From contig QEVF01000003.1 of assembly GCA_003576915.1 (NCBI GenBank), forward strand, positions 113,737 through 177,736: a stretch of DNA of 64,000 nucleotides, read 5' to 3'. The translations under genes and the position numbers were made by a program. Below, in pieces: positions 2,964-63,359 of the stretch. Every line of letters starts with the position of its first letter. The stretch's first letter is position 1. This DNA is from Planctomycetota bacterium. GTDB lineage: Bacteria > Planctomycetota > UBA8742 > UBA2392. The notes below the pieces were generated by a model. The model had not been told where the DNA came from. It saw only the letters and a list, made by a program, of their open reading frames with translations, and made no database searches.

Positions 2964-3048
2964 GGAGCTTTCCAGTGTGCTTCCGGTTACAATGCCCGAT
3001 CTGAGCGGTTGGGAATATCCGCCAATTGGCGTTCACTCGCAAGGAGAA

Positions 3049-4963: not shown

Positions 4964-5429
4964 CCTGGAGCATCAGAGTGCGGCCCGGCAACAGTATGCC
5001 GGGCCGCATTGTCGGGAGAGGCCCGTGCCACTGATCCGACCGCGGTTTTCAGTCCTGCTTGCCCTCCTGCTGGCGGCCCTGTGCCTGTCGGCCTGCGGAT
5101 CGGACGACCCCGTCAACAAGACCGATCGCAGCCGCGCCGAGGCCGACGCCAGGGCGAGCTTCGGCATCATCCGTACGGCGGTGCTGGCGCATTTCAAGAA
5201 GACCGGCAAGCTGCCGGACGAGCCGAGCCTGGCGCACTTCGGCATTGATGAAGGCCAGTTACGCAAGACTTTCTATGAGGCCTATGAATTCGAACTTGAT
5301 GGCGATCCCGAAGATGGCTACGGGGGCACCACCGTCACGGCCAGGCCCAAGGAAGGCAGCGCCGCCCCCTTGATGGTCATGACATTCGAAGACATGCGTA
5401 CTGGGGCGCACAAGATCCGGGTGAAGTAG
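4935..5429 (+). CDS. hypothetical lipoprotein
   Basis: Lipobox LLALLLAALCLSACGSDD. Start is uncertain; an alternative GTG near 5026 is preceded by GGGAGAGG. Confidence 0.4.
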   Translation: MATPFEMTSSLEHQSAARQQYAGPHCRERPVPLIRPRFSVLLALLLAALCLSACGSDDPVNKTDRSRAEADARASFGIIRTAVLAHFKKTGKLPDEPSLAHFGIDEGQLRKTFYEAYEFELDGDPEDGYGGTTVTARPKEGSAAPLMVMTFEDMRTGAHKIRVK

Positions 5430-10530: not shown

Positions 10531-11994
10531 ATGATTAGGAAAGTACTGCTGGTCGCTTTCTCGCTGGGGCTTCTTTTCTGGGCCGGCTCGCGGGGTCAGG
10601 CGCAGGAAGCTGAGCGCGCCGTTGAGCTGAGGCTGGTGGGGTTGAGCCAGGGTTACACCCGGCCCCTGCGCACCACGAGCGAACGTCTTGGGAAGGTGCC
10701 GGGCCTCAGGGAGGTCAAGGCGATTTCCCATCGGGCCGGCATTACGCGCTTCACGGCGCGGACCGCTCTTTCCAACGATGCGATTGCCGCGGCGCTGGGC
10801 CTGAAGCTTCTCGATGCCCGCGACGGCGCGCTGCTGCTTGCCCCGGCAGCGGCCGGCGAGGCCTGGCGTGCGGAAGCCAGGCTGGTCATCCTGGCGATCA
10901 TGGAGGCCATTCGTGAGCGCCAGCACCGGCAGCGGCGCAACATGTGGGACGAACTGCCCAACCTCTTCCCGTCCGAATCCTCCACAGAACAGGCCCTCAA
11001 GGTCCTCGGCTTTGAGCCCAGGATGCTTGAGGGGCGCTTCTTCAAGCTCAAGGACTACCACATTGAGGAAGAGGCGGGCTGGAACGGCACCTACAAGGTC
11101 TGGGCAGGCGAGCGCTATGCACCGGTGCCCGTGGGCAACCTCTACGACTTTGATTTCAGCAACGCCCAGGGGGAGGAGCCCGATGCCAAGGCCCGCTTCG
11201 TCGGCGCCAGGATGAATTTAAGTTCCTGGGGCGGGGGCTTCTGGTGGGTGGATTTCCACGGGTCTGCACTCAACGGCGTCGAATTTGAGCGTGACGCCAC
11301 GGTCGCCGGCAGCGGCACCCTGGCCGTCCAGGCCGGCGCAGAGCGCATCGTCACGGTGCTTCAGGCTGCCGCGCGCTATCGCTTCAAGGAAGGCGTGGAC
11401 AAGAAGACGAAGGACGAACTTCTCCGGGGCAGCCTGGCCAACTGGCAGTCGAAATCCGAACTGGGCCTGGGCGAGGATTACTGGGACTGCCTGCCCTACT
11501 ACAACGATAACGCGTTTTCCCTGAGCTGGTTCAAGCACGAGCAAACCGGCCATCTGCATGCACGCGTCAAGGCCTTCTATCCCAGCCACGCCCTGCACCT
11601 CGACGGCGACCTGGACGTGGACGCGGCCAAGGCATCCGACTTCAACGTCGAAAAGGTTCCCGTGCGCTGGACTGTGGGCGCCGAAAAGGACGCCAACGTG
11701 TTTGAGCAGCGTCGCGTGGAACTGGCCGCGGGTCTCAAGGTCCTGCGCGATGCCTTGTTCGCGCTTCCGGCCCCGCCTCCGGCCGCGAGCGCGCTCAGCG
11801 GACAGGCCCTCTGCGCCGCGCTTTCGCTGGCGGAAGACAAGCTCAAAGGAGCCCACTTCAGCGCCGCCGATTATTTGCTTTTGCCCCAGATGCTGGGAGA
11901 CTGGGAGATTCGCGCCGGATCTTCTGCCACGGGCGGATCAAGCTGGACGCTGGTCAGTTTCACGTCCAAAACCGATATCCGGAGCTACCGCTGA
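10531..11994 (+). CDS. hypothetical secreted protein
   Basis: ATG at 10531 after AGGTGAG. Signal peptide MIRKVLLVAFSLGLLFWAGSRGQAQEA. Confidence 0.5.
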   Translation: MIRKVLLVAFSLGLLFWAGSRGQAQEAERAVELRLVGLSQGYTRPLRTTSERLGKVPGLREVKAISHRAGITRFTARTALSNDAIAAALGLKLLDARDGALLLAPAAAGEAWRAEARLVILAIMEAIRERQHRQRRNMWDELPNLFPSESSTEQALKVLGFEPRMLEGRFFKLKDYHIEEEAGWNGTYKVWAGERYAPVPVGNLYDFDFSNAQGEEPDAKARFVGARMNLSSWGGGFWWVDFHGSALNGVEFERDATVAGSGTLAVQAGAERIVTVLQAAARYRFKEGVDKKTKDELLRGSLANWQSKSELGLGEDYWDCLPYYNDNAFSLSWFKHEQTGHLHARVKAFYPSHALHLDGDLDVDAAKASDFNVEKVPVRWTVGAEKDANVFEQRRVELAAGLKVLRDALFALPAPPPAASALSGQALCAALSLAEDKLKGAHFSAADYLLLPQMLGDWEIRAGSSATGGSSWTLVSFTSKTDIRSYR

Positions 11995-12422
11995 TGCGTA
12001 CTGCCGCCCTCCTGGCACTGGCCCTTGGCCTCTCGTTCTACTGTGTGGCCTGCGGCGATGATCCTGCTCCAACGCCCCAGCCGCGCCCCGCTCCCTCAAG
12101 CGGGATCATCCCCATGTCGAGTATCAGCGAGGCGCAGAAGGCCGAGGCCATCCAGAACATCGGGCAGCTCAAGGCCGCGCTGCAGAGCCGTTCCGTGACG
12201 CCGTACAATCGCAACCTCGAAAAGCTCTCGCGTGACGTCAGCGGCACGTTGAGCGAGGCCACGGCCCAGAAGCTCGGCTTTGCCAGCGTTCAGGGCTTCA
12301 ACGGCCAGTGGTACAAGGCCTCGGACTACGCCATCGCCTACATGGGCAGCGGCAAGTTCCTGATTACGGCGGGCCAGCTCAACCAGCCCAACTACATCAG
12401 CGAGGAAGTGCTGATCCGCTGA
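11994..12422 (+). CDS. hypothetical lipoprotein
   Basis: Lipobox MRTAALLALALGLSFYCVACGDD. Start overlaps the upstream stop. Confidence 0.5.
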   Translation: MRTAALLALALGLSFYCVACGDDPAPTPQPRPAPSSGIIPMSSISEAQKAEAIQNIGQLKAALQSRSVTPYNRNLEKLSRDVSGTLSEATAQKLGFASVQGFNGQWYKASDYAIAYMGSGKFLITAGQLNQPNYISEEVLIR

Positions 12423-12461: not shown

Positions 12462-14324
12462 TTGAGTCAACTTCTTGCGATGTCCTTTGACGGCCTGGCT
12501 TCGCCGTCCATCACCCTCAAGCCCGAGCGGCGCCAGACCGCGGACCAGCCCTTTGGCTGGGGCTTTGCCTGGTATCCGCGCGGCGACAACGCGGCCGTCG
12601 TGATCAAGGACCCCACCAGCATCGGCGAAAACGCCATGACGAAGGTCCTGCGGGACTGGGAGCGCTTCCAGAGCTGCGTGTTTGTCTGCCATATCCGTGG
12701 TGCCGCGCAACGCATCACCCAGCAGGATACCCACCCCTTTGAGCGCAGCTACGCCGGCCGCGACTGGATCATGGCCCACAATGGAGATCTGGTGGGCGAC
12801 CTGGACGCCACTTTTCCACTGGAGGTGCAGTCGCCCTTTGAGCCCATCGGGCTGACGGATACCGAGCACGTGTTCTGCTGGCTGCTGTCCCAGGTGCGGG
12901 GCATGGGCGCGCGCTGCCTGGCGGACATAGGCTGGCACAAGCTCTATGCCTGGTTCGGCGAACTGAACCGGCACGGCACGGCCAACTTCCTGCTCTCCGA
13001 CGGGCAGGACCTCGTGGTGTACCACGACAAAGACCGCTTCAACGGCCTTCACTGGACAAGGCGGCTGCCGCCCCACGCCAGCTTCAAGCTGGAGAACGAC
13101 GAAGTGCTGCTCGACTTCTCCGACGAAATGGACACCAACCGCACCGTCGTTGTGGTCAGCACCCGTCCCCTGGCCGGAGACGACGGCTGGAAGGCCATGG
13201 AAGGCGGCCAGATGCTGGTCTTGCGCCGCGGCTCCATGGTGTGGAACAGCCAGGGCGCGGCGCTGCAGGGCGTTGTCGGGGCGGGCGATACATCCATTCG
13301 CGCCTCCAAGGCCACAGGTAAGGTGCAGGTGCCCGTGGGGGCGCAGGGCGCGGCACGCAAGCCGCATACAAGGGGGCGGCCCCATTCGGGGCGTCTGCGC
13401 GCCGTAGCCACCGAGCAGCGGGTGTTTGACGTGCTGCACGAAACGGTCTACCGCTATGACACGCCCGTTGAGCGTTCGACGCACGTGTTCCGGCTCAAGC
13501 CCGTGGTTGACCCCGTGCAGCAGCTCATCAGTCACAAGCTCAGCATCAACGTGGACGGGCTGCGCCGCGAGTTCGAAGATGTGTTTGGCAACGCTGCCAC
13601 CAACCTGGAAGTTGAAAGCCCCTTCAAGGAAATGCGAATTGTCTCGCGCTCGCTCGTGCGCGTGAACGGCGCGGGGCTTTCGCTGCAGCGCTCGCCATCG
13701 CGGCGCCTGACCATTCCGCTGGTCTGGATGCCCTGGCAGCGACAGATGATGATGCCCTACCTGCTTCCCCCGGAGTTGCCCGAGACCCAGCTTGCCGAGC
13801 TGTCTGACTTTGCGATGAGCTTCGTCGAGCGCCAGAACTTCGACCTGCTGGAAACGCTGGTCGACATGAACATGACGATTTACCGCGACTTCCGTTATGT
13901 CTCGGGCAGCACCCGGAACGAAACTACGCCCTTTGAGGTTTACACGCAGCGCAAGGGCGTCTGTCAGGACTTTGCCAACCTGCTCATCTGCCTGGCGCGC
14001 CTGCTGAGCATCCCCGCGCGCTATCGCGTCGGCTACATCTACACCGGCGCCAACTACGCCAACAAGGTCCAGAGCGAAGCCAGTCATGCCTGGGCGGAAC
14101 TCTATCTGCCCTGGGTCGGCTGGCGCGGCTTTGATCCCACCAACGGCTGTGTGGTCGGAAGCGACCACGTTCGCGTGGCCTGCGGCCGCAACTACCTTGA
14201 TGCGACGCCAACCAGCGGCACCATCTATGCCGGCGGCGGGCCGGAGACCCTGAGCGTGAACGTGAAAGTCGAGGTGGCCGGCGAGTCAGATCTGGCAGAG
14301 CTTGCGGCCAATGACGAAAGCTGA
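12462..14324 (+). CDS. fusion protein: class-II glutamine amidotransferase-like (YafJ-type) N-domain + Bact_transglu_N + transglutaminase-like core
   Basis: TTG at 12462 with GGAG 5 nt upstream. N-terminus MSQLLAMSF resembles YafJ-type MCELLGMS but has Ser where the nucleophilic Cys sits. Motifs CHIRGA, HPF, HNGDL. Mid-region YRYDTPVERSTHVFRLKP. Transglutaminase triad context GVCQDF, HAWAELYLPWVGW, GFDPTNG. Confidence 0.75.
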   Translation: MSQLLAMSFDGLASPSITLKPERRQTADQPFGWGFAWYPRGDNAAVVIKDPTSIGENAMTKVLRDWERFQSCVFVCHIRGAAQRITQQDTHPFERSYAGRDWIMAHNGDLVGDLDATFPLEVQSPFEPIGLTDTEHVFCWLLSQVRGMGARCLADIGWHKLYAWFGELNRHGTANFLLSDGQDLVVYHDKDRFNGLHWTRRLPPHASFKLENDEVLLDFSDEMDTNRTVVVVSTRPLAGDDGWKAMEGGQMLVLRRGSMVWNSQGAALQGVVGAGDTSIRASKATGKVQVPVGAQGAARKPHTRGRPHSGRLRAVATEQRVFDVLHETVYRYDTPVERSTHVFRLKPVVDPVQQLISHKLSINVDGLRREFEDVFGNAATNLEVESPFKEMRIVSRSLVRVNGAGLSLQRSPSRRLTIPLVWMPWQRQMMMPYLLPPELPETQLAELSDFAMSFVERQNFDLLETLVDMNMTIYRDFRYVSGSTRNETTPFEVYTQRKGVCQDFANLLICLARLLSIPARYRVGYIYTGANYANKVQSEASHAWAELYLPWVGWRGFDPTNGCVVGSDHVRVACGRNYLDATPTSGTIYAGGGPETLSVNVKVEVAGESDLAELAANDES

Positions 14325-16260
14325 CGCGGCCATGCTTCGCGCGCAGAAATCGAGGTTGCAGGCGGCCCTGACGTCTGCCCTAAGTGTTGCCCGCCAGTTG
14401 CGCGGCGGGCGCGTTGCCGACTACATTCCTGAACTGGCCAAGGCCGACCCCGCCAGCCTGGCCTTGGCGGCCTGCACACCCGACGGCGTGGTCTGCGAGC
14501 TGGGCGAGGCTTCGCTCGAATTCACGATTCAGTCCATCAGCAAACCGTTCGTGTACGGGCTGGCGCTGGCCGATCACGGCGTGGAGGCTGTGCACCGGCG
14601 CGTCGGGGTGGAGCCCGCCGGCGACAGTTTCAACTCCATCATCCGCCTGGAGCAGAGCACCAACCGGCCCCACAACCCCATGATCAATGCGGGGGCCATT
14701 GCCGTCACGAGCCTGATCGAGGCACGCGAGGGAAAGCCGCCGCTTCAGCGGCTGCTGGACCTGTTTGCCGCGGCCGCCGGCCGCAAGTCCGTGCAGGTGG
14801 ATTTGCCGGTCTACCTTTCCGAAGCCGCCAGTGGCCACCGCAACCGGGCCATTGCCCACCTGATGAAGCACTTCGGGATGCTGCGCGGCGACATTGACCG
14901 CACGCTGGAGCTCTACTTTCAGCAGTGTTCCGTGCTGGTCAGTTGCCGCGACCTCGCGGTCATGGCCGCTACCCTGGCCAACCAGGGCGTCAACCCGCTG
15001 ACGGGCGAGCGCGTACTGCCCGCCGAGGCGGTCACCCACGTGCTGAACGTGATGTTGACCTGCGGCCTCTATGACTTCGCGGGGCAATTCGCGTTTGAGG
15101 CCGGCATTCCCGCCAAGAGCGGTGTCTGCGGCGGCATCCTGGCGGTGGCCCAGGGCAAAGCCGGGCTGGCCTGCTTCTCGCCCCCGCTGGACGAGCGCGG
15201 CAACAGCCTGCGTGGCCTGGCGGCCATGCGTGAGCTCTCGCAGAGCCTGGGGCTGCACGCCTTTGATGCGCCCCCGGCCCGGCGCCCCTCGACGCGGCAG
15301 GCCGCCATCTCGGCGCGGCCTTCCAGGCGCACGGGCGCGGGTACCGCGCGCCTTGATGCGCTGCTGGCCGAGGTGCATCGCCGCCGGCGCGGCGAGTCCG
15401 GCGGGGCGCCTGCCTCATACATTCCGCAACTGGCTCGGTGTGATGCGCGGCTGTTCGGATTGGCGCTGTGCACGGTGGGGGGCGAAGAAGCAGCCCAGGG
15501 CGACGTGGACGTTCCGTTCACGTTGCAGGCCGCCGCCAATGTGTTCACGTACAGTCTGGCATTGCAGGCGCGGGGCAAGGACGTGGTGCACGGGAAGGTG
15601 GGATTTGAGCCCAGCGGCAATCCGTTCAACGCGATCATCTTTGATCCGCGCACGCAGCGCCCCTTCAACCCCCTCAGCAACGCGGGGGCCATTGCCATAT
15701 GTTCGACGATTCCCGGTCAGGGTGCCACGGCGCGCCTCAATCACCTGCTTGAGGGCATGGGCCGCTTTGCGGGCGAAGACAAGCTGCGCGTGGACCTGCA
15801 GGTCATGCTGGCCGAGCGCCAGGCCGGAGAACGCAACAAGGCCATCGCCTGCCTGCTGCGCAATTTCAACGTGATTGACGACGAAGAAGCGGCACTGGAA
15901 CTCTACTTCCAGCAATGCAGCGTGAGCGTGAATTGCCGGCAGTTGGCGCGCATGGGCGCGGCGCTGGCCGCCGGCGGCGTGAACCCGCGAACCGGGCATG
16001 TCGCGCTCGACGCCGATCACGTCAAACGCGTGCTCGCCCTCATGTACATGTGCGGCCTTCATGACGGCTCGGGGCAGTTCGCATTTGACGTGGGCATGCC
16101 GGCCAAGAGCGGCATCTCGGGCGGGCTGGTGGCAGTCGTTCCCGGCCAGTTCGCAGTGGCCGCCTTTTCTCCCCCCGTCGATGCCAAGGGCACCAGCGTG
16201 CGCGGAGCTCTGGCCCTGCACGACATTTCGGCGGCCTTGAGGGTGGGCTTGTTTGCCTGA
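14302..16260 (+). CDS. glsA: tandem-duplicated glutaminase (two GlsA-like domains in one 652-aa protein)
   Basis: Domain 1 has DYIPELAKAD and QSISKPFVYGLAL (Ser-x-x-Lys). Domain 2 has SYIPQLARCD and QAAANVFTYSLAL (Ser-x-x-Lys lost). The two halves align residue by residue. Confidence 0.85.
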   Translation: MRPMTKADAAMLRAQKSRLQAALTSALSVARQLRGGRVADYIPELAKADPASLALAACTPDGVVCELGEASLEFTIQSISKPFVYGLALADHGVEAVHRRVGVEPAGDSFNSIIRLEQSTNRPHNPMINAGAIAVTSLIEAREGKPPLQRLLDLFAAAAGRKSVQVDLPVYLSEAASGHRNRAIAHLMKHFGMLRGDIDRTLELYFQQCSVLVSCRDLAVMAATLANQGVNPLTGERVLPAEAVTHVLNVMLTCGLYDFAGQFAFEAGIPAKSGVCGGILAVAQGKAGLACFSPPLDERGNSLRGLAAMRELSQSLGLHAFDAPPARRPSTRQAAISARPSRRTGAGTARLDALLAEVHRRRRGESGGAPASYIPQLARCDARLFGLALCTVGGEEAAQGDVDVPFTLQAAANVFTYSLALQARGKDVVHGKVGFEPSGNPFNAIIFDPRTQRPFNPLSNAGAIAICSTIPGQGATARLNHLLEGMGRFAGEDKLRVDLQVMLAERQAGERNKAIACLLRNFNVIDDEEAALELYFQQCSVSVNCRQLARMGAALAAGGVNPRTGHVALDADHVKRVLALMYMCGLHDGSGQFAFDVGMPAKSGISGGLVAVVPGQFAVAAFSPPVDAKGTSVRGALALHDISAALRVGLFA

Positions 16261-16442
16261 CGCGGCTGGAGCATTTTCAGGGGTTTTCTTCAGGCACGGG
16301 CTTGCGGCGAACCGCGTCGGGTCGTGTTCGCCTCGCCGCGCATGGCTCTTGGCATGCTATCGGCCCGGCTGCCTTGCCCGACTCGCCCGGCGCAACGCGA
16401 TTGCTCTGAAGACAAACCCTTAAACTGCTCTATATTTCGCCC

Positions 16443-17084
16443 ATGCTTTCCACATTCATCTCGGTCAAGACACGGCTGCCTGACCTCTGCACCGAGGTGT
16501 GGAGCTATGCGCTGGAGCTGCGCCGGGGAGGCGACCCCGGCGGCGCCGCGGCCGTCAAGAGCAAGGTCAGCAGCCTGTTTCGGCTGCTGGACAAGCAGGC
16601 CAAGCTGGCGCAGGTCGAGCAGGGGGACCTCCAGCAGGCCAAGTATGCCCTCTGCGCTCAGATCGACGAGATCGTGATGTCATCGGGCTGGCCCTGGCGC
16701 GACAACTTCGCGCCGCTGTGCGTCGAGTATTACGGCGACGCCGCCGCCGGCGAGAACTTCTTCCAGCGCCTCGAGACCTTCCGCCATTCCACGGAGACGC
16801 GCCGCCGCGACCTGCTCGAGGTGTTCTACATCTGCTTAGCCCTCGGTTTTCAGGGCAGGTACTCCGACACCCGGGGTCTCGAGCAGCGCAAGGCCCTCCT
16901 GGACGGCATCAGCCGCGAACTTTGCGGCGAATCCGCGCGCCCCCTTAGCGTGCAGGTGACCTCGCCCGACCCCCTGCCCGGGCCGCGTACCCCGCGCCCA
17001 CTCTGGATCGTACCGGCACTTTGCCTGCTGGCCGTGGGCGCGCTCTATGCCGCGCTGTCCTGGGCCCTGGGAACGACGGCATGA
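16443..17084 (+). CDS. tssL: DotU/TssL-family membrane protein
   Basis: DotU signature region DEIVMSSGWPWRDNFAPLCVEYYG and RRDLLEVFYICLALGFQGRY. C-terminal TM helix LWIVPALCLLAVGALYAAL. Confidence 0.8.
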   Translation: MLSTFISVKTRLPDLCTEVWSYALELRRGGDPGGAAAVKSKVSSLFRLLDKQAKLAQVEQGDLQQAKYALCAQIDEIVMSSGWPWRDNFAPLCVEYYGDAAAGENFFQRLETFRHSTETRRRDLLEVFYICLALGFQGRYSDTRGLEQRKALLDGISRELCGESARPLSVQVTSPDPLPGPRTPRPLWIVPALCLLAVGALYAALSWALGTTA

Positions 17085-20000
17085 ATCTGCGCGCCCTGAT
17101 TTCAGCGTTTATCAAGGAAGGCGGCATCGGACTGGCCGTGATCGTGCTGCTGGTGATGATGGTCTTGGTCGGCGGCGATTACTTCGAGCTTGAGCCCCGC
17201 CTGACGCAGGCGCTGATGGCGGGCATCGTGTTCGCAGGTCTCGCGATTTACGCGGCGAGGCGCATCATGGCCCGCCGCCAGGCGCGCAAACTGACGTCAA
17301 AGTTCATGGAGCTGGCGGCCGAGGACGCCGATGCCACCTTGGGCGAGCGCAAGGCCCGGCAGCAGGAGATTGCGTCTCTGCTTCGTGAGGGCGTGGCCGC
17401 CCTGCGCCTGTCGGAGCAGGGAGAGCAGGCCGTCACCCGCCTTCCGTGGTATCTCGTCATCGGCCCCGCCGGAGCCGGCAAGAGCACACTGCTGGAGGCT
17501 TCCGGCCAGAACTTCGCGCCGCTGGGCCGCGCACGCAGGCCGGTCACCGAGGCCGGCACCACGCGCGACCTGGACTGGTGGGTTGGCGGCCAGGGCGTGT
17601 TTCTGGATGTGCCCGGCCGCTACATCTCAGATGCCAGTGCTCCCTTTGAGTGGCCGGCCTTTGTCAGCGCTTTGAAGGAAACACGTGCCCAGGCGCCGGT
17701 TTCAGGGGTGCTGGTCGTCATACCCCTGCCCGAGATTCTCGCGTTGAAAAACGACGAGTTGGAACCCTGGGCCAAGAACATCCGCGACCGCCTCGATGAA
17801 CTCAGCGGCCAGTGCCGCTGGGTGTTTCCCGTTTATGTGGTCTTCAGCAAGTGTGACTGTGTCAAGGGCTTCGATGCCGCGTTCTCGAATCTGGCGACGG
17901 AGGGGCGCCGGCAGGCTTTTGGCGCCACGCTTCCCTTTGCCATCGACGAGAACCGAAACTACCGCACCATCTTTCATGACGAGTGCAACCGCCTCAGCGA
18001 GCCCCTGCGCCTTCAGGTTCTTGCCTCCCTGGCCCAGGATCTACCCGCAGCGCTCAAGGAAAGCATGGCGCTTTTCCCGCGGCAGTTCTTTCTGGCCCAG
18101 CGCCGCATGGGTGAAGTGCTGGGACCCGTCTTCCGACCCAACCCGTTCATTGAGACGGGCCTGCTGCGCGGCTTCTACTTCACCAGCGCCACCCAGGGCG
18201 GAGCCCTGCATGACCTGGTGTCTGAGCGGGTGGAGCCACGGCCCGTTCCCGTTGAAACGGCGGCGTTTTTCGTGGAGCAGATCTTCGCCGATGTGCTGCC
18301 GCCCGACCGTTTTCTGGCGCGCCTTTCCCTCAAAGAATCGCAGCGCAGACGCGTCCTTTCCACGGCGCTGGCCGCGGCCAGCCTGCTGCTGGCCCTGATG
18401 GTCTCGGCGGGCATGGCCCTTGCCTTCAGCGAGCGCCGCCAGAGCATCGTTTCGCTGGCGCAGGCGCGCGCCCATCCCGACCCCCTTGCGCGCATGGATG
18501 CCCTGCGCGATGCCCTGCTGCAGGCCGAGGGTAACCGCTCGCCTGTCACCCGCATGTTTGTTTTCAGCGGGGACCCCGAGGGCCGCGCCCTGGGCGAGGC
18601 GCGACAGGAATACCATCAGGCCCTGCGCGCCCATGTCATTCAACCCGCGGCTGACACCCTGGCGGCGGAAATCCAGCGCCTGAGGGATCAGCAAGTCCGA
18701 TCCATCGCTGATTACGACCGCATGCTGGCTGCATTTTCGGCCCTGCGTGCCCTTGCCGGCCGCGGCGACCTGAACGCGGAGGCCCTGCGCCCGGAACTTG
18801 AGCGCACCCTGGCATTGCTGGCTCCGCAAGCGGCCACACGCGAGATTCTCTTCCGGCAGTCGGACTATCTGCTGGCGCGGCCGGGAGAGCTGGCTTCCTG
18901 CCGTGCGCAGATCGCAAGCGGCCTGCTGGAGATCGTCGATCGCGAGTTGCGCGGGGCACTCTGGATTGAGGCGGCCTTTGCCGAAGTCCTGCGCGAGGCG
19001 CCCGCTGACCTTCCCGCCGTGAATCTGGAAGACCTTGTCGCTTCTCCCGGCCGCAGTTACCTCGCGCTGGGGCAGCCCGTGCCTGGCCTCTACACCCAGC
19101 GCGGCTACGACACGTACGCGGGGCCCGCCATGGCATCGCGGGCCCGGGAGATTGCGAGGCGCTATGGGGCGCTGGGCGAAAACAGGCCCGCCTGGAGTGT
19201 CGAGGCTTCATTGACAGACTACTACGCCGACGCCTACGCCCGGGCCTGGGATGATGCCCAGGCGTCGTTTGCGGTGGCTGACTTCGCCTCACTGAGCGAC
19301 TGCGCTGCGGGTCTGAAGCACCTGACAGGGCCGGATTCGGCCATGCGCGAGCTCATGGTTTCGCTGCGCGCAGGGCGCACGCTGCTGCTCAAGAACGGGA
19401 CGCAGCGCAACGCCGCCGGCGACGACCTGAAGTGGCTTGATTCCGGGCTGAGTCAGCTCAGGACAGTTCAGACGGCCCTGGAGGCCATGTTGCAGCGCAC
19501 CCATGCGGGTTCCCACCTGATGGAGTACCTGGCCCAGGAAAAATTGGACGCGCTGCTGGATACTCTCAACGGTGTGGCCCGCGGCATGGAGGATGTGGTG
19601 GCGGCGGCGCCCCGCGAGTCTCGCGGCCGCATGGGCGCCGTGCTTTCCGCCCTGCTTGGGGGAGTTATCCGAGAACTGCGCGAGGCGGCACTGGCCGAGG
19701 CCGGCGAAGTCTGGAGGGCAAGCGTGGCTTCGACATGGCGGTTGGACCTCGCGCCTTACTATCCGTTCAACGCCGAGAGCGTAAGCGAGGCCTCCCCTGG
19801 GACGGTTTCGCGCCTGCTCAATCCCAAGAACGGCAACCTGTGGGTGGCCCTGGCCCAAATGGAAAAGCTCCGTGCCAAGGCGGTCAACGGTCGGCCCCTG
19901 CTGGAGTACGGCCCGGAGTTCAGCGCTGCCCTGGAGCGTGCCGCCAGACTGCGTGACCTGCTTTTCGATGGAGGCGAGACGCTGAGCGTGCCCTTCTCGG

Positions 20001-20389
20001 TGGTGTTTGACCGGGGCGAAGGCGTGTCCGATGTGGGCTTCACGCTCGGCGACAAGTCCGTCACCTACACCGACCTGGGCACGAAGGCCGCCGAGTTTGC
20101 CTGGACGGAGTCCATGGCCCCCGGCGTACGCATTCAGGCCCGCGTGGGGCAGTCGCTGTGGCTGACCCGGTCCTACCCTGCGCAGAAGTGGGCGATCGTG
20201 AGGCTCTTCAGCGATGCCAGGCGAACCCCGGTGGGCGAGCAGCGCGTCAAGTGCGCCTGGGTCTTCACGCAGGTGCTGGGGACCCGAAACTTGAGCTTCA
20301 TGGCCTATGCCGAGTTCGAGTTCCGATCCGGGGTGGCCTTTGACCCCGCGCTCTTCACTGAACTCAAGTTGCCCGAGACCATGCGCTAG
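17081..20389 (+). CDS. tssM: IcmF/TssM-family inner-membrane NTPase
   Basis: ATG overlaps the tssL stop (ATGA). N-terminal TM helices, Walker A LVIGPAGAGKSTLLEASG, a third TM helix, then a ~700-aa periplasmic region. Size and topology are typical of TssM. Confidence 0.85.
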   Translation: MNLRALISAFIKEGGIGLAVIVLLVMMVLVGGDYFELEPRLTQALMAGIVFAGLAIYAARRIMARRQARKLTSKFMELAAEDADATLGERKARQQEIASLLREGVAALRLSEQGEQAVTRLPWYLVIGPAGAGKSTLLEASGQNFAPLGRARRPVTEAGTTRDLDWWVGGQGVFLDVPGRYISDASAPFEWPAFVSALKETRAQAPVSGVLVVIPLPEILALKNDELEPWAKNIRDRLDELSGQCRWVFPVYVVFSKCDCVKGFDAAFSNLATEGRRQAFGATLPFAIDENRNYRTIFHDECNRLSEPLRLQVLASLAQDLPAALKESMALFPRQFFLAQRRMGEVLGPVFRPNPFIETGLLRGFYFTSATQGGALHDLVSERVEPRPVPVETAAFFVEQIFADVLPPDRFLARLSLKESQRRRVLSTALAAASLLLALMVSAGMALAFSERRQSIVSLAQARAHPDPLARMDALRDALLQAEGNRSPVTRMFVFSGDPEGRALGEARQEYHQALRAHVIQPAADTLAAEIQRLRDQQVRSIADYDRMLAAFSALRALAGRGDLNAEALRPELERTLALLAPQAATREILFRQSDYLLARPGELASCRAQIASGLLEIVDRELRGALWIEAAFAEVLREAPADLPAVNLEDLVASPGRSYLALGQPVPGLYTQRGYDTYAGPAMASRAREIARRYGALGENRPAWSVEASLTDYYADAYARAWDDAQASFAVADFASLSDCAAGLKHLTGPDSAMRELMVSLRAGRTLLLKNGTQRNAAGDDLKWLDSGLSQLRTVQTALEAMLQRTHAGSHLMEYLAQEKLDALLDTLNGVARGMEDVVAAAPRESRGRMGAVLSALLGGVIRELREAALAEAGEVWRASVASTWRLDLAPYYPFNAESVSEASPGTVSRLLNPKNGNLWVALAQMEKLRAKAVNGRPLLEYGPEFSAALERAARLRDLLFDGGETLSVPFSVVFDRGEGVSDVGFTLGDKSVTYTDLGTKAAEFAWTESMAPGVRIQARVGQSLWLTRSYPAQKWAIVRLFSDARRTPVGEQRVKCAWVFTQVLGTRNLSFMAYAEFEFRSGVAFDPALFTELKLPETMR

Positions 20390-20470
20390 CAGCCTGCTCA
20401 AAATCCCCGGGACCTTTGGAGCAGCGCGGCCTGCTCCGCAAGCCTAGCCTTGCCCGCGAAAGGAGGAACC

Positions 20471-20842: not shown

Positions 20843-20913
20843 CGGGGGGCCCAAAGCCGGATTTGCCGCAACCTCGGGGCAGTCGGGGGGTTCTGTCTGT
20901 GACTTGAGGGAGA

Positions 20914-21773
20914 TGGAAATGAAGACTGTACTTGCGGCCCTTGTGGCGGGCTTGTTGGGAGGCGGGGCGGTGGTCGGGGCTGTGGCCTCCGGCTTGGTGC
21001 CCGTTGAGGACCTGGCCGGGCGCGATGCCAGGGTCAAAAGCGCACCAACCAGCGATCATGACATAGCCGCACTCGAGGAAGAGAACGCGCGCCTGCGCGA
21101 AACGGTCAACTCGCAGGCGAAGGATCTGTCGGAACTGAGCGGGGCCTTGAAGCAGACCCGCAACGACATGGACGCCTTGAGCAGGCGGTTGGAGGATGCG
21201 GCCACCAAGGCGGACGTGGCGAAGATTTCTGCCAGTGCGCCGGAGACGCCGGCGGCCGAAGCCGCGCCGGGCGAAAGTCCTCCGCCCGTGGCAGTAGTGC
21301 CCAGCTCCCCCGAGTATCGCGCCGCCTGGCGCGCGGAACAGGAAGCCTATGAAAAGGAGCGGCAGGAGCAGCGCCGCCTCAACATGCAGGCCGAGCGCGT
21401 GAAGCAACTTGAGGAGCAGAAGACGCTGGTAGCCAAGACCATTCCCGAGACTCTGGCCTCTCAGGCCGCCCGCCTTAACCTGAATGAAACGCAGGTCAAA
21501 GCCTGCGCCGACGCCCTGGTAGCGCATGCCCACAAGCGACTCGAAATCATGAGCGCAGTGGCTGAAAGGCGCATCAACGACGAGGAGATCGACCAGGAAG
21601 CCCTCCAGGCCCAGATAGCCGATCTCGACGCGGCAACCAAAGCGATACTGCTCGCCAGTGTTGATGAGAAGACGGCTGATTCATTGCTGCAGATGACCAA
21701 TCGTGCCGGGCGCGGCGGCAACGACGGCGGACGGGGCGGCCGAAACACGCGCCCCGGCGGTCGCGGCAACTGA
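20914..21773 (+). CDS. membrane-anchored coiled-coil protein with RGG-rich tail
   Basis: N-terminal TM MEMKTVLAALVAGLLGGGAVVGAV, a long heptad-like region, and a C-terminal GRGGNDGGRGGRNTRPGGRGN. Confidence 0.5.
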
Positions 21774-23232: not shown

Positions 23233-26103
23233 TTAGCGCACGCCCTGCAGCAGGCTGAGCACAGCCTGGGGGATGCTGTTGGCCGCCGAGAGCACGCTGG
23301 TGCTGGCCTGGAACAGGATCTGGGCCTTGGTGAACGCGCTGGTTTCGGCCGCGAAGTCCAGGTCGCGGATGAAGCTTTGCGCCCCGGACAGATTCTCCAC
23401 GGCCACACCCACGCTGTTGAGGTTGCGCTGCAGCGTATCGCTGGAGACTGAACCCAGGTAGCTGCGCAGGCCGGTCACCTGGTCGATGGCGCGGTCCACG
23501 ATCTCGAGCGCGTTGGCGGCGTTGGTGCTCAGGTCATTGCCTGCGCCCGTACGCAGCGTGTTCAGAGAGCCGCCGGGATAACCGCCGGCCTCCAGGCTTT
23601 CCGGCGTGATCTTGGCCCCGAGCGTGCCCGTGCTGATCTGACGGATGCCCACCATCAGGCTGTCCACGGCGCTGTTCGTCTCGCGCAGCTGGAAGCGCAT
23701 GCCACTGATGTCCTGCGGGCCGCCGCTGTAGCTCTGGCGCACGGCAAAGCTCACGCTGTCCAGGTAGCCGTTGGGCAGGCGGGACTGCGCGTACTGCGGC
23801 GTCAGCGCCGAGGCACCGCTGATGCTGGCATTCTGGGCAAAACCAAAGCGCGCCGCGTCGTTGCGCGTGCCGGCGCTGCCGGCCGCCCCGAAGCTCTGGG
23901 CGAGCGAGAACTTGACGTCGAGGGGGCCAGTGACGAAGTTGACGTCCCAGCCGCGTCCCTGGAAGGCCATGCCGCTGATGTTGCCTTTCACGTCGCTGCC
24001 CACGGCCTGAATGCGTGAGCCCGCCACGCCCGTGACCGTGTTGGTCGTGCCGGCCAGAGCGCCGAGTCCGCTGCGCCCGTCGCCGGTGGCGGCCAGCCCG
24101 CCCTGAAGGGCCGACTTCAGGCCCACACCCGAGGTCGGCGCCGTGACATCCTCAAGGCTGATGATCTGGTCGGAACCGAATTCCGTGCTGAACAGCGCCA
24201 GGCGCTCGAAGTTGCTGGTGCTGGCGCTGTTGGCGCGGCCGAACACGGCGTGCATGTCCGTATCGGAGCCGACGCTGTCCTCGTTGATGGTGAAGGTGCC
24301 GCCGAAGCGATCCACGATGCTGAGGCCGCCCTTGGCATCGAAGTAGGCCTGATAGCGCGTGCGCAGGTCGTCCTGGCCCACGGCGTCGTTGGAGGCGGCG
24401 TTGAGGGCCGTCTGGATGTCCGAAAGCGTGATGAAGCCTGAGGGGCCCGCCGCCACGCTGATGGTCGAAACGCCGCTGGAATCACGGATCTCGAAGTCGA
24501 GCGTGCCGCCGGACACCACGGCGGGCGGAATGGCCAGCGAGCCGCTGTCGGTCACAAAGCCCTTGGGAACGGCGAAGTTGATGAAGCTGACGGGCTCATC
24601 CTTCGAAGCGCCGGATTCGCCCGTGATGCCAAGCTTGCCAAGGTCGCCCGTGTAGCGCGTAACGTCGCGCGAGCCGTTGAGCGCGGCCTGCGTGACGTCG
24701 TCGTCGCCGCCCTGGTTGGTGATGCCCACCGCGGTGCCCGCGGCGCCCAGGGTGCTGCCCGTCATGTCAATGACGACCAGGTTGCCGTTGGCGTCGGTCT
24801 GTACGGCCGCATTGCCGCCAAAGGCCGCCATGCTGCGCACCGCCGCGACCATGGCCGCGATGTCGGCGGGGTTGTCCACGCCCAGGCCGCCGGTGTTGGC
24901 AAAGGAAAGCTCTTCATCGCCCGCGGTGATGGTGCCGTCGCCGTCCACATCAAAGCCGATGGCCGTGCCGTCGCCGAAGGTGGCCGAAGCCGAGCCGCCC
25001 TCGTTGGCCGTGAACATGGAGGCGATCTGGTCGGCACTGAGGGTGAAGGTGCGTACGTTCTGGGCTCCGCTGAACTTGAAGTTCGAGGCGGCGTTGCGGA
25101 TGACGAGGTCGCCGTCGCGGTTGTAGACCTCGAAGTTGGGATCCACGGCCGTCAGGGCCGCCTGGAGTTCCGCCTCGCTGATGACCGAGTCAGCTCCGCT
25201 GTTGATCACGATGTTCCGCGCGGGAGCCGAGCCCACCTGCAGGTTGAACACCATGTCCTGGCCGTTGCCGTTGAGCTGAATGCCCGAGCCCTTGCCCTTG
25301 AGCACGAACTCGGCCGAGCCGCTGTCCAGCGCCATGGGGCGGTAGCCCGCGGCGTAGACGCCGGTGGCCGAACTGTTCTGGTTGATGGCGGCAATCAGGT
25401 CGCCCACGGTGCTGCCGGCGCCCAACAGCAGGTCTTCGCTGCCCTTGGAGCCGCGCACGCGCAGTGTGACGAAGTCGGCCGCGTTGCCGCCGGGGCGCAC
25501 TTCCGTCAGCGTCTGCGTCGAGTCGAAGGCCTGGTTGGTCACAATCGTGGCGCGCTCGGCCATCTGGCCGATGTTCACGTCGAACTTCTGGACCTCGGCG
25601 CCGGGAGCCAGGCGCACGCTGCGCACGTCGAGTTCGTCAAAGGCGCCGGTCTGAGCCTTTTCCACAAGAAAGGCGCTGTCACCGTTGAGCAGGCCCCGCT
25701 TGCCAAAGCGCGTGCTCTGGGCGATGCGGTCGATGGCGACCAGAGACTGGTTGAGTTTGTCCTGCTCCGCCGCGATCTGCTCGCCGGAGGCAAAGCCCGT
25801 GTTCAGGGCGAACACCACGCTCGAACGCATGTTCACCAGCACATCGCTGATTTCCTGGAGCGCGGCTTCGGCGGTATTGATGATGTTGATGTCGTTCTGG
25901 GTGTTCTCCAGCGCGCGGTTCAGGCTTCCGATCTGGGCGCGCAGCTTTTCGGAGATGACCAGCCCCGAAGGGTCGTCGGAGGCGCGGTTGATGCGCAGGC
26001 CGGTGCTGAGGCGCTCGAGAGACGCCTGTTGCATCTGGTCGTTGCGCTTGAGATTCGTCAGAGCGCTGAGCGAGCTGATATTGTTGTTGACGCGAAGACC
26101 CAT
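23233..26103 (-). CDS. fliC: giant flagellin (~956 aa) with conserved N/C terminal D0/D1 regions and a very large central variable domain
   Basis: N-terminus MGLRVNNNISSLSALTNLKRNDQMQQASLERLSTGLRINRASDDPSG. C-terminus TKAQILFQASTSVLSAANSIPQAVLSLLQ. ATG located at 26101-26103. Confidence 0.85.
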   Translation of the reverse strand: MGLRVNNNISSLSALTNLKRNDQMQQASLERLSTGLRINRASDDPSGLVISEKLRAQIGSLNRALENTQNDINIINTAEAALQEISDVLVNMRSSVVFALNTGFASGEQIAAEQDKLNQSLVAIDRIAQSTRFGKRGLLNGDSAFLVEKAQTGAFDELDVRSVRLAPGAEVQKFDVNIGQMAERATIVTNQAFDSTQTLTEVRPGGNAADFVTLRVRGSKGSEDLLLGAGSTVGDLIAAINQNSSATGVYAAGYRPMALDSGSAEFVLKGKGSGIQLNGNGQDMVFNLQVGSAPARNIVINSGADSVISEAELQAALTAVDPNFEVYNRDGDLVIRNAASNFKFSGAQNVRTFTLSADQIASMFTANEGGSASATFGDGTAIGFDVDGDGTITAGDEELSFANTGGLGVDNPADIAAMVAAVRSMAAFGGNAAVQTDANGNLVVIDMTGSTLGAAGTAVGITNQGGDDDVTQAALNGSRDVTRYTGDLGKLGITGESGASKDEPVSFINFAVPKGFVTDSGSLAIPPAVVSGGTLDFEIRDSSGVSTISVAAGPSGFITLSDIQTALNAASNDAVGQDDLRTRYQAYFDAKGGLSIVDRFGGTFTINEDSVGSDTDMHAVFGRANSASTSNFERLALFSTEFGSDQIISLEDVTAPTSGVGLKSALQGGLAATGDGRSGLGALAGTTNTVTGVAGSRIQAVGSDVKGNISGMAFQGRGWDVNFVTGPLDVKFSLAQSFGAAGSAGTRNDAARFGFAQNASISGASALTPQYAQSRLPNGYLDSVSFAVRQSYSGGPQDISGMRFQLRETNSAVDSLMVGIRQISTGTLGAKITPESLEAGGYPGGSLNTLRTGAGNDLSTNAANALEIVDRAIDQVTGLRSYLGSVSSDTLQRNLNSVGVAVENLSGAQSFIRDLDFAAETSAFTKAQILFQASTSVLSAANSIPQAVLSLLQGVR

Positions 26104-26197
26104 GACATCCTCCGTGATGGTCGGGCAGAAGCCCAAAATGGGCAGGCATCCGTGCCTGCCTCTGAGCCCGCAACGCGGGCGCAGCATGACGTGTCTG

Positions 26198-30674: not shown

Positions 30675-30675
30675 C

Positions 30676-39947: not shown

Positions 39948-39949
39948 CC

Positions 39950-49405: not shown

Positions 49406-49408
49406 GGC

Positions 49409-63349: not shown

Positions 63350-63359
63350 AGGAGTGGTT

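What the first reader, a model, noticed from the sequence alone, without database searches (positions are those of the whole stretch)
16260..20450. Orphan TssL(DotU)-TssM(IcmF) membrane-complex pair without any other T6SS core genes nearby
tssL and tssM are translationally coupled (ATGA overlap). An AT-rich promoter-like patch with TATATT lies just upstream at 16425-16430. Within this 64 kb there is no TssA/B/C/E/F/G/J/K, Hcp, VgrG, ClpV or PAAR gene, and no Dot/Icm T4BSS gene. Instead, the pair sits directly after glutamine-amidase-type genes and before a small PQQ-like protein and a membrane-anchored coiled-coil/RGG protein. A DotU/IcmF dimer used outside a canonical T6SS or T4BSS would be a largely undescribed membrane module.
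Basis: partly seen in the sequence, partly recalled or inferred. Interest (0 to 1): 0.7.

Follow-up and report, generated by a model that had tools for sequence, protein, structure and literature searches.

The report
Detached T6SS membrane-complex genes tssL-tssM
This is an intact, selectively maintained pair of type VI secretion membrane-complex genes (tssL-tssM) in a Planctomycetota genome from metagenomes; it sits apart from all other secretion genes here, but in sister genomes the same pair lies beside the secretion spike genes, so it is most likely one piece of a secretion system scattered over several loci, not a new kind of membrane machine.

Summary
tssL (16443-17084) and tssM (17081-20389) overlap by ATGA. 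No other T6SS or Dot/Icm family was found in the 64 kb window, nor in about 8-10 kb beyond each end.

TssM passes NCBI's T6SS TssM equivalog cut-off and fails the T4BSS IcmF model. Its topology, Walker A motif and C-terminal domain match E. coli TssM. The two nearest outgroup TssMs (33% and 28% identity) sit in canonical FHA-TssJ-TssK-TssL-TssM-TagF-TssA clusters.

The pair belongs to a small Planctomycetota clade. In both other sub-lineages, tssLM is followed by a large Ser/Thr kinase and a VgrG gene. In one of them this continues into a full DUF2169/pentapeptide, DUF3540 and PAAR-like spike module. The window's genus has lost that module from this site.

The pair is not decaying: dN/dS is 0.15-0.20 against a relative with 87% TssM identity, in every large TssM domain.

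Best reading (about 0.62): it is the membrane-complex part of a multi-locus T6SS. I could not search the rest of the genome, so a T6SS-independent role is not excluded (about 0.15-0.2). Interest is low to moderate.

The parts
16443..17084 (+). tssL (DotU family, short form with no peptidoglycan-binding domain), 213 aa. It has a cytoplasmic domain and one C-terminal transmembrane helix (residues 185-211).
   Evidence: Pfam DotU 8.5e-43. TIGR03349 scores 140.4 bits against a cut-off of 89.95. PDB matches to TssL/DotU structures 6y4r, 7thw, 4v3i and 3u66. Hydropathy shows the single helix. dN/dS is 0.20 against L003/L006.
17081..20389 (+). tssM (IcmF family), 1102 aa. Layout: TM1-TM2 hairpin, cytoplasmic P-loop domain, TM3, large periplasmic domain.
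   Evidence: TIGR03348 TssM equivalog scores 424.8 bits against a cut-off of 388.15, covering model positions 19-1131 of 1168. IcmF_IVB scores only 26.6 against a cut-off of 1000. Pfam domains. Transmembrane segments at about 5-38, 41-59 and 423-451. dN/dS is 0.15 overall.
17081..17084 (+). ATGA stop/start overlap between tssL and tssM (translational coupling).
   Evidence: Read directly from the sequence. The same 4-bp overlap appears in the called genes of every clade member. It is absent from outgroups L004 and L015, which have gaps of 12-31 bp.
17462..17485 (+). Walker A motif GPAGAGKS (TssM residues 128-135).
   Evidence: Regex match. G128, G133, K134 and S135 are invariant across the clade. 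The motif is present in 60 of the 60 best TssM homologues.
19403..20278 (+). Periplasmic C-terminal region of TssM (residues 775-1066). It is homologous to the outer-membrane-reaching, TssJ-binding part of E. coli TssM.
   Evidence: The clade profile A1 matches 6hs7 residues 780-1071 at E = 7.7e-17, and the crystallised C-terminal domains 4y7m and 4y7l/4y7o. dN/dS is 0.19 for the helical part and 0.15 for the C-terminal part.
16431..16436 (+). TATATT hexamer 6 nt upstream of the tssL ATG. It is a candidate -10 element of a promoter belonging to tssL itself, which would give a leaderless or near-leaderless mRNA. This reading is an inference.
   Evidence: A TAnnAT hexamer sits at the same distance from the conserved MLSTFISVKT start in all lineages: TATATT in the window, L003, L006 and L001; TAGGAT in L002; TACCAT in L014. 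As a consensus promoter match alone it is not above chance.
16268..16431 (.). A 164-bp insertion between the glutaminase stop and tssL, resembling a miniature inverted-repeat element (MITE). It has 25-nt terminal inverted repeats at 16269-16293 and 16406-16430.
   Evidence: Absent from L003, L006, L013 and L001, where the glutaminase-tssL gap is only 18-19 bp. Present in L007, which is 100% identical to the window. It folds as one long hairpin of -87.4 kcal/mol, z = -4.87. Inverted repeat found. No Rfam match. Only one copy in the window.

Best explanation
These are genuine tssL and tssM genes, the inner-membrane core of a type VI secretion membrane complex. They come from a Planctomycetota bacterium known only from metagenome assemblies; relatives include MAGs named BroJett014 and Bin_91R.

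How it most likely works, inferred from what is established for canonical T6SS in other bacteria:
- TssL is anchored by one C-terminal helix.
- TssM is anchored by three helices and carries a cytoplasmic Walker A NTPase domain.
- The periplasmic arm of TssM reaches the outer membrane. Together the two proteins form the channel and docking platform for a baseplate, sheath and spike.

I infer that those other parts are encoded elsewhere in the genome, which would make this a multi-locus T6SS.

The ancestral arrangement of this clade was tssL-tssM, then a large Ser/Thr kinase on the opposite strand, then vgrG with a Tvp-type spike-loading module. The window's genus lost or moved the kinase and spike part from this site but kept tssLM under purifying selection.

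Shown: gene identity, domain architecture, clade structure, gene order in relatives, selection.
Inferred: T6SS core genes elsewhere in this genome, an own promoter for tssL, and kinase control through the invariant Ser/Thr-rich TssL N-terminus.
For: 1. Family identity. TssM scores above the TIGR03348 equivalog cut-off along nearly the whole model. TssL scores above the TIGR03349 cut-off.

2. Architecture. The topology is canonical and the Walker A motif is present. The periplasmic C-terminus is homologous to E. coli TssM structures 6hs7 and 4y7m.

3. Phylogeny. An NJ tree of 45 TssMs gives a monophyletic clade of P0139/P0002 (the window's genus), P0003, and P0004-8. The nearest canonical-cluster relatives are P0009 and P0010. 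Their loci L004 and L015 read FHA-TssJ-TssK-DotU-IcmF-TagF-TssA, with sheath genes also present in L004.

4. Gene order in the clade. L001/L005 (GCA_964268005.1) reads DotU-IcmF, kinase on the opposite strand, VgrG, a 266-aa protein, DUF2169+pentapeptide, a 340-aa protein, DUF3540, Tox-PAAR-like. L002 (GCA_020845475.1) reads the same as far as the contig was fetched. This domain set matches the class III Tvp spike-assembly module described experimentally in PMC13373197.

5. Shared ancestry of the locus. L001 shares the window's upstream GATase-transglutaminase and glutaminase genes at 77-85% amino-acid identity. The two loci are therefore orthologous, and the spike module is missing specifically from the window's genus.

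6. Selection. For the window against L003/L006, dN/dS is 0.20 for tssL and 0.15 for tssM at dS 0.3-0.5. Every large TssM domain falls at 0.11-0.19. The ORFs are intact in several independent assemblies.

7. Precedent. About 9% of T6SSi systems are encoded at multiple loci (PMC4793230). T6SS has been reported in Planctomycetes (PMC6461901).
Against: No sheath, baseplate, Hcp, ClpV, VgrG or PAAR gene from the window's own organism or genus was found.

Even in the sister genomes, no sheath or baseplate gene lies within 10 kb of the pair. A complete T6SS has therefore not been demonstrated for any member of this clade.

A full HMMER search with the L001 VgrG found no hit traceable to MAGs of the window's genus. 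That test is weak, because it only sees representatives of 50% clusters.

No tssJ lies next to the pair in any clade member.
Confidence: 0.62

Rival explanations
1. The pair has a T6SS-independent role. The window's genus has lost the T6SS tail and spike altogether but keeps TssL-TssM as an envelope-spanning module with some other job, possibly together with the downstream PQQ-like and coiled-coil proteins or the upstream glutaminase/transglutaminase genes.
For: No T6SS gene occurs in about 82 kb around the pair. The kinase-VgrG module present in sister lineages is gone from this site. Purifying selection continues in all TssM domains. The order glutaminase-tssL-tssM, with a 19-bp spacer, is conserved between two genera.
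Against: The glutaminase link is absent from the other sub-lineage (L002, L014, L016). The PQQ-like and coiled-coil neighbours occur only within the window's genus, and the coiled-coil gene evolves almost neutrally at dN/dS 0.7-0.8. The baseplate-facing cytoplasmic domain and the outer-membrane-reaching C-terminus show the same constraint as in lineages that keep the spike. tssL seems to carry its own -10-like element, and a 164-bp insertion between glutaminase and tssL is tolerated. About 98% of the genome was not examined.
Confidence: 0.17
2. The pair is a decaying remnant. The tssLM genes are left over from a lost T6SS and are on their way to becoming pseudogenes.
For: The pair is locally isolated. 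The tssL-tssM-PQQ-coiled-coil block is more diverged in DNA (85.8% identity) than its flanks (91-92.7%).
Against: Both ORFs are intact in every assembly seen. dN/dS is 0.15-0.20 over dS of about 0.3-0.5, and the Walker A motif and all domains are conserved. The loss of the adjacent spike module predates the split of the window from L003/L006, so a functionless gene should by now show dN/dS near 1 or disruptions.
Confidence: 0.04
3. The pair belongs to a type IVB (Dot/Icm-like) secretion system, as IcmF and IcmH/DotU do in Legionella.
For: The Pfam families are shared between the two systems. TssL scores 56 bits on the IcmH_DotU_IVB model, just above its cut-off of 50.
Against: TssM scores 26.6 bits on IcmF_IVB against a cut-off of 1000, and 424.8 bits on the T6SS equivalog. 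TssL scores far higher on the generic DotU/TssL model (140 bits). All 120 listed TssM homologues are T6SS-type. No Dot/Icm family occurs in the window. Relatives lie beside VgrG and PAAR-like genes or inside T6SS clusters.
Confidence: 0.01

Closest known systems
Canonical T6SSi membrane complex TssJ-TssL-TssM (enteroaggregative E. coli Sci-1; PDB 6hs7, 4y7m, 4y7o, 3u66)
   Same: TssM has the same three-helix topology, cytoplasmic Walker A domain and periplasmic C-terminal domain. TssL has the same cytoplasmic fold family and C-terminal anchor. The two genes are adjacent.
   Different: No tssJ, tssK, tagF or tssA lies nearby. The pair is detached from all tail genes. TssM is rather short (1102 aa) and falls below the Pfam gathering scores for IcmF_C and IcmF_helical. 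phmmer with the single sequence finds no PDB match; only the clade profile does.
Nearest sequence relatives in canonical clusters: L004 (GCA_900174565.1, TssM 33% identical) and L015 (GCA_973514475.1, 28% identical)
   Same: They belong to the same TssM/TssL subfamily by score and tree. Ser/Thr kinases occur in the neighbourhood in both cases.
   Different: Those loci read FHA-TssJ-TssK-TssL-TssM-TagF-TssA, and L004 also carries sheath genes. In the window's clade, none of these genes flanks the pair. The ATGA overlap and the invariant TssL N-terminus MLSTFISVKTR are specific to the clade.
Sister-lineage loci L001/L005 (GCA_964268005.1) and L002 (GCA_020845475.1): tssLM + kinase + VgrG + class III Tvp-like module (DUF2169/pentapeptide, DUF3540, PAAR-like; PMC13373197)
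   Same: The tssL-tssM genes are orthologous (54-56% TssM and 60-67% TssL identity). L001 also shares the upstream GATase-transglutaminase and glutaminase genes.
   Different: The window's genus lacks the kinase, VgrG and Tvp/PAAR genes at this site. In their place are a PQQ-like gene and a coiled-coil gene.
Multi-locus T6SSi systems and satellite vgrG/PAAR islands (Abby et al. 2016, PMC4793230)
   Same: Components of one T6SS are spread over several loci. About 9% of T6SSi are multi-locus, and 35% of replicons with a T6SSi encode VgrG away from the main locus.
   Different: The part that usually detaches is the spike (VgrG, PAAR, Hcp). Here the detached part is the membrane complex, and a main locus has not been seen.
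Agrobacterium tumefaciens T6SS, where the kinase PpkA/TagE phosphorylates TssL (reviewed in PMC13584744)
   Same: In sister lineages, Ser/Thr kinases directly flank tssLM. TssL has a Ser/Thr-rich N-terminus that is invariant across the clade.
   Different: No kinase lies next to the pair in the window; the nearest is about 29 kb away at 49409-53986. Phosphorylation is purely an inference.
Legionella Dot/Icm IcmF-IcmH(DotU)
   Same: The same Pfam families, also as an adjacent gene pair that stabilises a larger secretion machine.
   Different: TssM fails the IcmF_IVB equivalog model. There are no Dot/Icm genes, and all relatives are T6SS-type.

Membership tests
T6SS TssM (TIGR03348 equivalog) | Score above the curated equivalog cut-off along the full-length model | tested here: met
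   424.8 bits against a cut-off of 388.15, covering residues 28-1055 and model positions 19-1131 of 1168.
T6SS TssM | N-terminal TM hairpin, cytoplasmic P-loop (Walker A) domain, third TM helix, large periplasmic domain | tested here: met
   Hydropathy segments at about 5-38, 41-59 and 423-451. GPAGAGKS at residues 128-135. Pfam IcmF-related_N covers 190-433 and IcmF-related covers 469-763.
T6SS TssM | C-terminal periplasmic domain homologous to the TssJ-binding, outer-membrane-reaching domain | tested here: met
   The clade profile matches 6hs7 residues 780-1071 (E = 7.7e-17) and 4y7m/4y7l. Pfam IcmF_C reaches only 25.2 bits against a gathering score of 26.7 for the single sequence.
T6SS TssL / DotU | DotU-family cytoplasmic domain plus a single C-terminal TM anchor, encoded next to tssM | tested here: met
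   TIGR03349 scores 140.4 against 89.95. Pfam DotU 8.5e-43. TM helix at 185-211. PDB matches to TssL structures. ATGA overlap with tssM.
Complete T6SSi (TXSScan definition: at least 11 of 14 components) | Sheath (TssB/C), tube (Hcp), baseplate (TssE/F/G/K), TssA, ClpV and VgrG in the same genome | not testable with these tools
   None were found in the window or in about 18 kb of flanks. The rest of the genome could not be searched.
Complete T6SSi | Physical clustering of tssL/tssM with the other core genes | tested here: not met
   No core gene lies within about 82 kb here. In all five clade loci examined, no sheath or baseplate gene lies within 10 kb.
Complete T6SSi | Outer-membrane lipoprotein TssJ next to tssL/tssM | tested here: not met
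   No T6SS-SciN family hit in the window. The small lipoprotein-like u142 (11994-12422) has no family match, and its structure model was unusable at pLDDT 40. TssJ-less T6SSs are known (PMC13584744).
T4BSS IcmF / IcmH(DotU) | IcmF_IVB equivalog score above cut-off, and Dot/Icm genes present | tested here: not met
   IcmF_IVB scores 26.6 bits against a cut-off of 1000. TssL only marginally passes IcmH_DotU_IVB (56 against 50), well below its generic DotU score. No Dot/Icm family occurs in the window.
   Glutaminase adjacency occurs in only two of three sub-lineages. PQQ-like and coiled-coil adjacency occurs only in the window's genus. Both other sub-lineages have a VgrG gene next to the pair, and L001/L005 has a full spike module ending in a PAAR-like gene.

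The most novel reading that the evidence does not exclude
In this Planctomycetota genus the whole contractile part of the T6SS (sheath, tube, baseplate, spike) has been lost. TssL-TssM persists under purifying selection as a free-standing envelope-spanning module with a new role. That role might be tied to the glutaminase/transglutaminase operon it has followed through two genera, or to the downstream PQQ-like and membrane-anchored coiled-coil proteins.
Probability: 0.15. Interest if true: 0.7.

Novelty: new member of a known kind. Interest (0 to 1): 0.25.

Why it matters
If the pair is one part of a multi-locus T6SS, which I think most likely, the finding is a modest piece of comparative genomics. 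It documents a Planctomycetota TssLM clade in which the membrane complex has separated from the baseplate and sheath genes. In one genus it has also separated from its kinase-VgrG-Tvp spike module. This is a caution for pipelines that score T6SS by gene clustering.

It would matter more if whole-genome scans showed that no T6SS tail genes exist in this genus. A selectively maintained TssL-TssM pair would then be the first clear case of the T6SS membrane complex being reused for something else.

The invariant Ser/Thr-rich TssL N-terminus, together with the kinases flanking the pair in sister lineages, also offers a testable case of direct kinase control of TssL outside Agrobacterium.

Tried and rejected
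1. Finding the organism's other T6SS genes.
- A protein search with the L001 VgrG gave only 18 distant hits and missed even the L002 VgrG.
- A search with the L004 sheath protein turned out to target an odd TssB-TssC fusion family with 20 members and said nothing about this clade.
- A full HMMER search of cluster representatives with the L001 VgrG, followed by cluster look-ups, gave no hit traceable to MAGs of the window's genus.

2. Walking outward from the window. About 10 kb past the 3' end and about 8 kb past the 5' end were seen, with no T6SS genes. One look-up failed because the start codon I chose did not match the record.

3. The window's large kinase (49409-53986) as the ortholog of the kinase beside tssM in relatives. 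Rejected: only the kinase domain matches, at 39% identity.

4. The PQQ-like protein as a TssJ substitute. Rejected: it has no signal peptide or hydrophobic segment.

5. The lipoprotein-like u142 as a TssJ analogue. The single-sequence AlphaFold model was unusable at pLDDT 40.3, and there is no family match. This stays open.

6. The glutaminase-tssL spacer as a riboswitch or known RNA. No Rfam match at E <= 1. It is a strain-specific hairpin insertion instead.

7. The promoter claim. The consensus match is not above chance. Only its conserved position argues for function.

8. Literature searches for orphan tssL/tssM or for Planctomycetes T6SS architecture found no direct precedent or description.

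9. Searches failed because of coordinate or frame errors and were repeated.

Full report
**What is at the site**

The window is about 65% G+C. On the + strand, a 213-aa ORF (16443-17084) and an 1102-aa ORF (17081-20389) overlap by ATGA.

Pfam calls the first DotU (8.5e-43). It calls the second IcmF-related_N (2.8e-58) and IcmF-related (1.9e-27), with IcmF_C and IcmF_helical just below their gathering scores.

NCBIfam places the large protein above the TssM equivalog cut-off: TIGR03348 scores 424.8 against 388.15, across model positions 19-1131 of 1168. It is far below the type IVB IcmF model (26.6 against 1000). The small protein is above the DotU/TssL cut-off (140.4 against 89.95).

Hydropathy gives one C-terminal helix in TssL. 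In TssM it gives the classical TM1-TM2 hairpin, a cytoplasmic domain with Walker A GPAGAGKS, TM3 at 423-451, and a periplasmic domain of about 650 residues.

A profile of the clade matches E. coli TssM (6hs7) over residues 780-1071, and also the crystallised C-terminal domains 4y7m and 4y7l. TssL matches four solved TssL/DotU structures. These are therefore genuine T6SS-type tssL and tssM genes.

**Is the pair really alone?**

I selected likely genes by ORF length and third-position GC and scanned them all against Pfam. The proteins without a Pfam family that lie next to the pair or are large were also scanned against NCBIfam; three others (2821-3804, 3974-4963, 4935-5429) had Pfam only.

The window encodes:
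- secA;
- a signal-peptide protein and a small lipoprotein-like protein, neither with a family match;
- a GATase_4-transglutaminase fusion and a double glutaminase;
- tssL and tssM;
- a 123-aa PQQ_2-like protein and a membrane-anchored coiled-coil/RGG protein;
- a flavoprotein oxidoreductase and a 984-aa flagellin;
- housekeeping genes;
- a Kelch/Big_2 giant protein and a kinase/FGE-sulfatase giant protein;
- a flagellar rod and ring operon.

No T6SS or Dot/Icm family other than DotU and IcmF appears. tblastn with T6SS proteins taken from related loci also finds nothing. Logan contigs from the same organism extend the view about 10 kb downstream and about 8 kb upstream, again with no T6SS genes. 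L007 is 100% identical to window 9740-30389.

**Relatives**

The TssM search found a small clade:
- the window's own protein (P0139 = KAA0218452.1 / RIK64990.1, 'MAG: bacterium');
- a cluster at 87% identity that includes the MAGs BroJett014 and Bin_91R, annotated as Planctomycetota;
- six proteins at 53-56% identity from 'Planctomycetes bacterium' MAGs.

The next-best hits are at 33% and 28% identity. An NJ tree of 45 TssMs shows the clade as monophyletic with two branches: (window genus + P0003) and (P0004-P0008).

The nearest relatives that sit in canonical clusters are P0009 and P0010. Their loci read FHA-TssJ-TssK-DotU-IcmF-TagF-TssA, with kinases nearby and, in L004, sheath genes as well.

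Gene order within the clade:
- **Window genus** (L003, L006, L007, L013): same order as the window.
- **L001/L005** (GCA_964268005.1, on a 530-kb contig): CP_ATPgrasp, Alpha-E, GATase-transglutaminase, glutaminase, DotU, IcmF, a 1484-aa Ser/Thr kinase on the opposite strand, VgrG, a 266-aa protein, DUF2169+pentapeptide, a 340-aa protein, DUF3540, Tox-PAAR-like, then unrelated genes.
- **L002, L014, L016**: a 567-601-aa kinase on the opposite strand, then DotU and IcmF. In L002 and L014 a roughly 1490-aa kinase follows on the opposite strand, and in L002 VgrG, a 266-aa protein and DUF2169+pentapeptide follow that. L016 ends within IcmF.

The domain set VgrG / DUF2169-pentapeptide / DUF3540 / PAAR-like matches what a recent experimental study defines as a class III Tvp spike-assembly module (PMC13373197). 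That is a dedicated T6SS accessory set.

The kinase-VgrG arrangement occurs on both branches of the clade. L001 also shares the window's upstream genes: 84.5% identity for GATase-transglutaminase and 77% for glutaminase. The simplest history is that tssLM-kinase-vgrG is ancestral for the clade, and the window's genus lost or relocated the kinase and spike part from this site.

No clade member has sheath or baseplate genes within 10 kb of the pair. If these organisms have a working T6SS, it is encoded at several loci, which has been reported for about 9% of T6SSi (PMC4793230).

**Is the pair still in use?**

Against the 87% relative, dN/dS is 0.20 for tssL and 0.15 for tssM, at dS 0.3-0.5. The surrounding genes range from 0.014 to 0.15. 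The coiled-coil gene is nearly neutral at 0.7-0.8.

By TssM domain, dN/dS is 0.11 for the cytoplasmic NTPase, 0.13 and 0.19 for the periplasmic domains, and 0.15 for the C-terminal domain. Only a 40-residue stretch around TM3 is unconstrained.

The loss of the adjacent spike module predates the split of the window from L003/L006. A functionless remnant should therefore not look like this, and I regard the pseudogene-in-waiting idea as rejected. The constraint on the parts that face the baseplate and the outer membrane fits continued use in a T6SS, but it does not prove it.

**The junction with the glutaminase gene**

In L003, L006, L013 and L001, tssL starts 18-19 bp after the glutaminase stop codon. 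The window and L007 have a 164-bp insertion exactly there, at 16268-16431. The insertion has 25-nt terminal inverted repeats and folds into one long hairpin of -87.4 kcal/mol, z = -4.9. It has no Rfam match and no second copy in the window. It looks like a MITE-type element.

As a consensus promoter match it is unremarkable. However, a TAnnAT hexamer sits at the same distance from the conserved start in every lineage: TATATT in the window, L003, L006 and L001; TAGGAT in L002; TACCAT in L014. The last two lineages have a divergent kinase gene upstream instead of glutaminase.

My inference is that this is the -10 element of a promoter belonging to tssL itself, giving a leaderless or near-leaderless transcript. 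If so, the adjacency to glutaminase need not imply a shared function.

**Regulation (inference)**

The first 11 residues of TssL, MLSTFISVKTR, are identical in all clade members but differ in the outgroups. The stretch is rich in Ser and Thr. In sister lineages, kinases flank the pair on one or both sides. In Agrobacterium, the T6SS kinase phosphorylates TssL near its N-terminus (PMC13584744). Direct kinase control of TssL is therefore a reasonable, untested idea for this clade.

**What I could not do**

I could not search the rest of this organism's genome for TssB, TssC, Hcp, TssE, TssF, TssG, TssK, ClpV, VgrG or PAAR. Several attempts to reach these genes indirectly failed or were uninformative. 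The structure model of the small upstream lipoprotein-like protein was unusable.

**Verdict**

The pair is a genuine, functional tssL-tssM belonging to a Planctomycetota-specific TssLM clade. It is most likely the membrane-complex locus of a T6SS spread over several loci (confidence about 0.62).

The spike genes beside the orthologous pair in sister genomes argue against it, as does the lack of any non-T6SS partner gene conserved across the clade.

I rate the novelty as a new member of a known kind, and the interest as low to moderate (0.25).

Noticed in passing
window 16268-16431: A 164-bp palindromic insertion resembling a miniature inverted-repeat element (25-nt terminal inverted repeats; long hairpin, z = -4.9). 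It lies between the glutaminase stop and tssL. It is present only in this strain (and in the identical Logan contig L007) and absent from four relatives. No Rfam match, and a single copy in the window.
   Followed up: partly
window 10531-11994 and 11994-12422: Two translationally coupled genes with no Pfam or NCBIfam family: a 487-aa protein with a signal peptide, and a 142-aa protein with a lipoprotein-like signal (..FYCVAC|GDD). They are conserved in the window's genus. In sister genome L001, CP_ATPgrasp and Alpha-E genes occupy the same position. The AlphaFold single-sequence model of the small protein was unusable (pLDDT 40).
   Followed up: partly
window 12480-14324 and 14311-16260; L001 1-9341: A GATase_4-transglutaminase fusion, followed by a 649-aa protein with two tandem Glutaminase domains. 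In L001 the same two genes sit within a fuller CP_ATPgrasp / Alpha-E / DUF2126-transglutaminase cluster. From memory this resembles a described amidoligase/peptide-modification gene neighbourhood; I did not check this. The two genes are very conserved (99% and 94% identity to the 87% relative).
   Followed up: no
window 23233-26187 (-) and 63354-63998 (+); L008 11899-14748: Unusually large flagellin-family proteins: one of 984 aa, and a 949-aa FlgL-like or flagellin protein after flgK. Both have long central regions between the conserved N- and C-terminal helices.
   Followed up: no
window 44387-55803: A run of very large, tightly packed genes: a 1672-aa Kelch/Big_2 protein, a 1525-aa Ser/Thr kinase fused to an FGE-sulfatase domain, and a 605-aa protein with no family. 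They lie directly upstream of the flagellar flgF-flgG-flgA-flgH-flgI operon.
   Followed up: no
window 20913-21773: The membrane-anchored coiled-coil/RGG protein evolves almost neutrally: 63% amino-acid identity and dN/dS 0.7-0.8 against a relative whose neighbouring genes are 87-99% identical. The alignment is probably affected by low-complexity sequence.
   Followed up: partly
window 39705-40267: Two ClpS adaptor domains in tandem. One is a 105-aa ClpS gene at 39950-40267. The other is a ClpS-like C-terminus of an upstream ORF.
   Followed up: no
window 30661-31185 and 31523-33358: A small protein with a CARF/RtcR-like domain lies next to a 611-aa dynamin-family GTPase. An 894-aa protein with no family lies on the opposite strand at 34325-37009.
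   Followed up: no
L004 1173-3947: The outgroup T6SS locus carries a short VipA gene plus two tandem VipB genes of about 390 aa. The nearest relatives of these VipB proteins are 505-570-aa VipA-VipB (TssB-TssC) fusion proteins. Only 20 relatives were found, so this is a rare sheath variant. A second, ordinary VipA gene follows TssA in the same locus.
   Followed up: no
window 16443-16475; alignment A3: The first 11 residues of TssL (MLSTFISVKTR) are invariant across a clade whose TssL proteins are otherwise only 59-89% identical. The stretch differs in the outgroups. It could be a phosphorylation or recognition site, or could reflect a constraint on translation initiation.
   Followed up: partly
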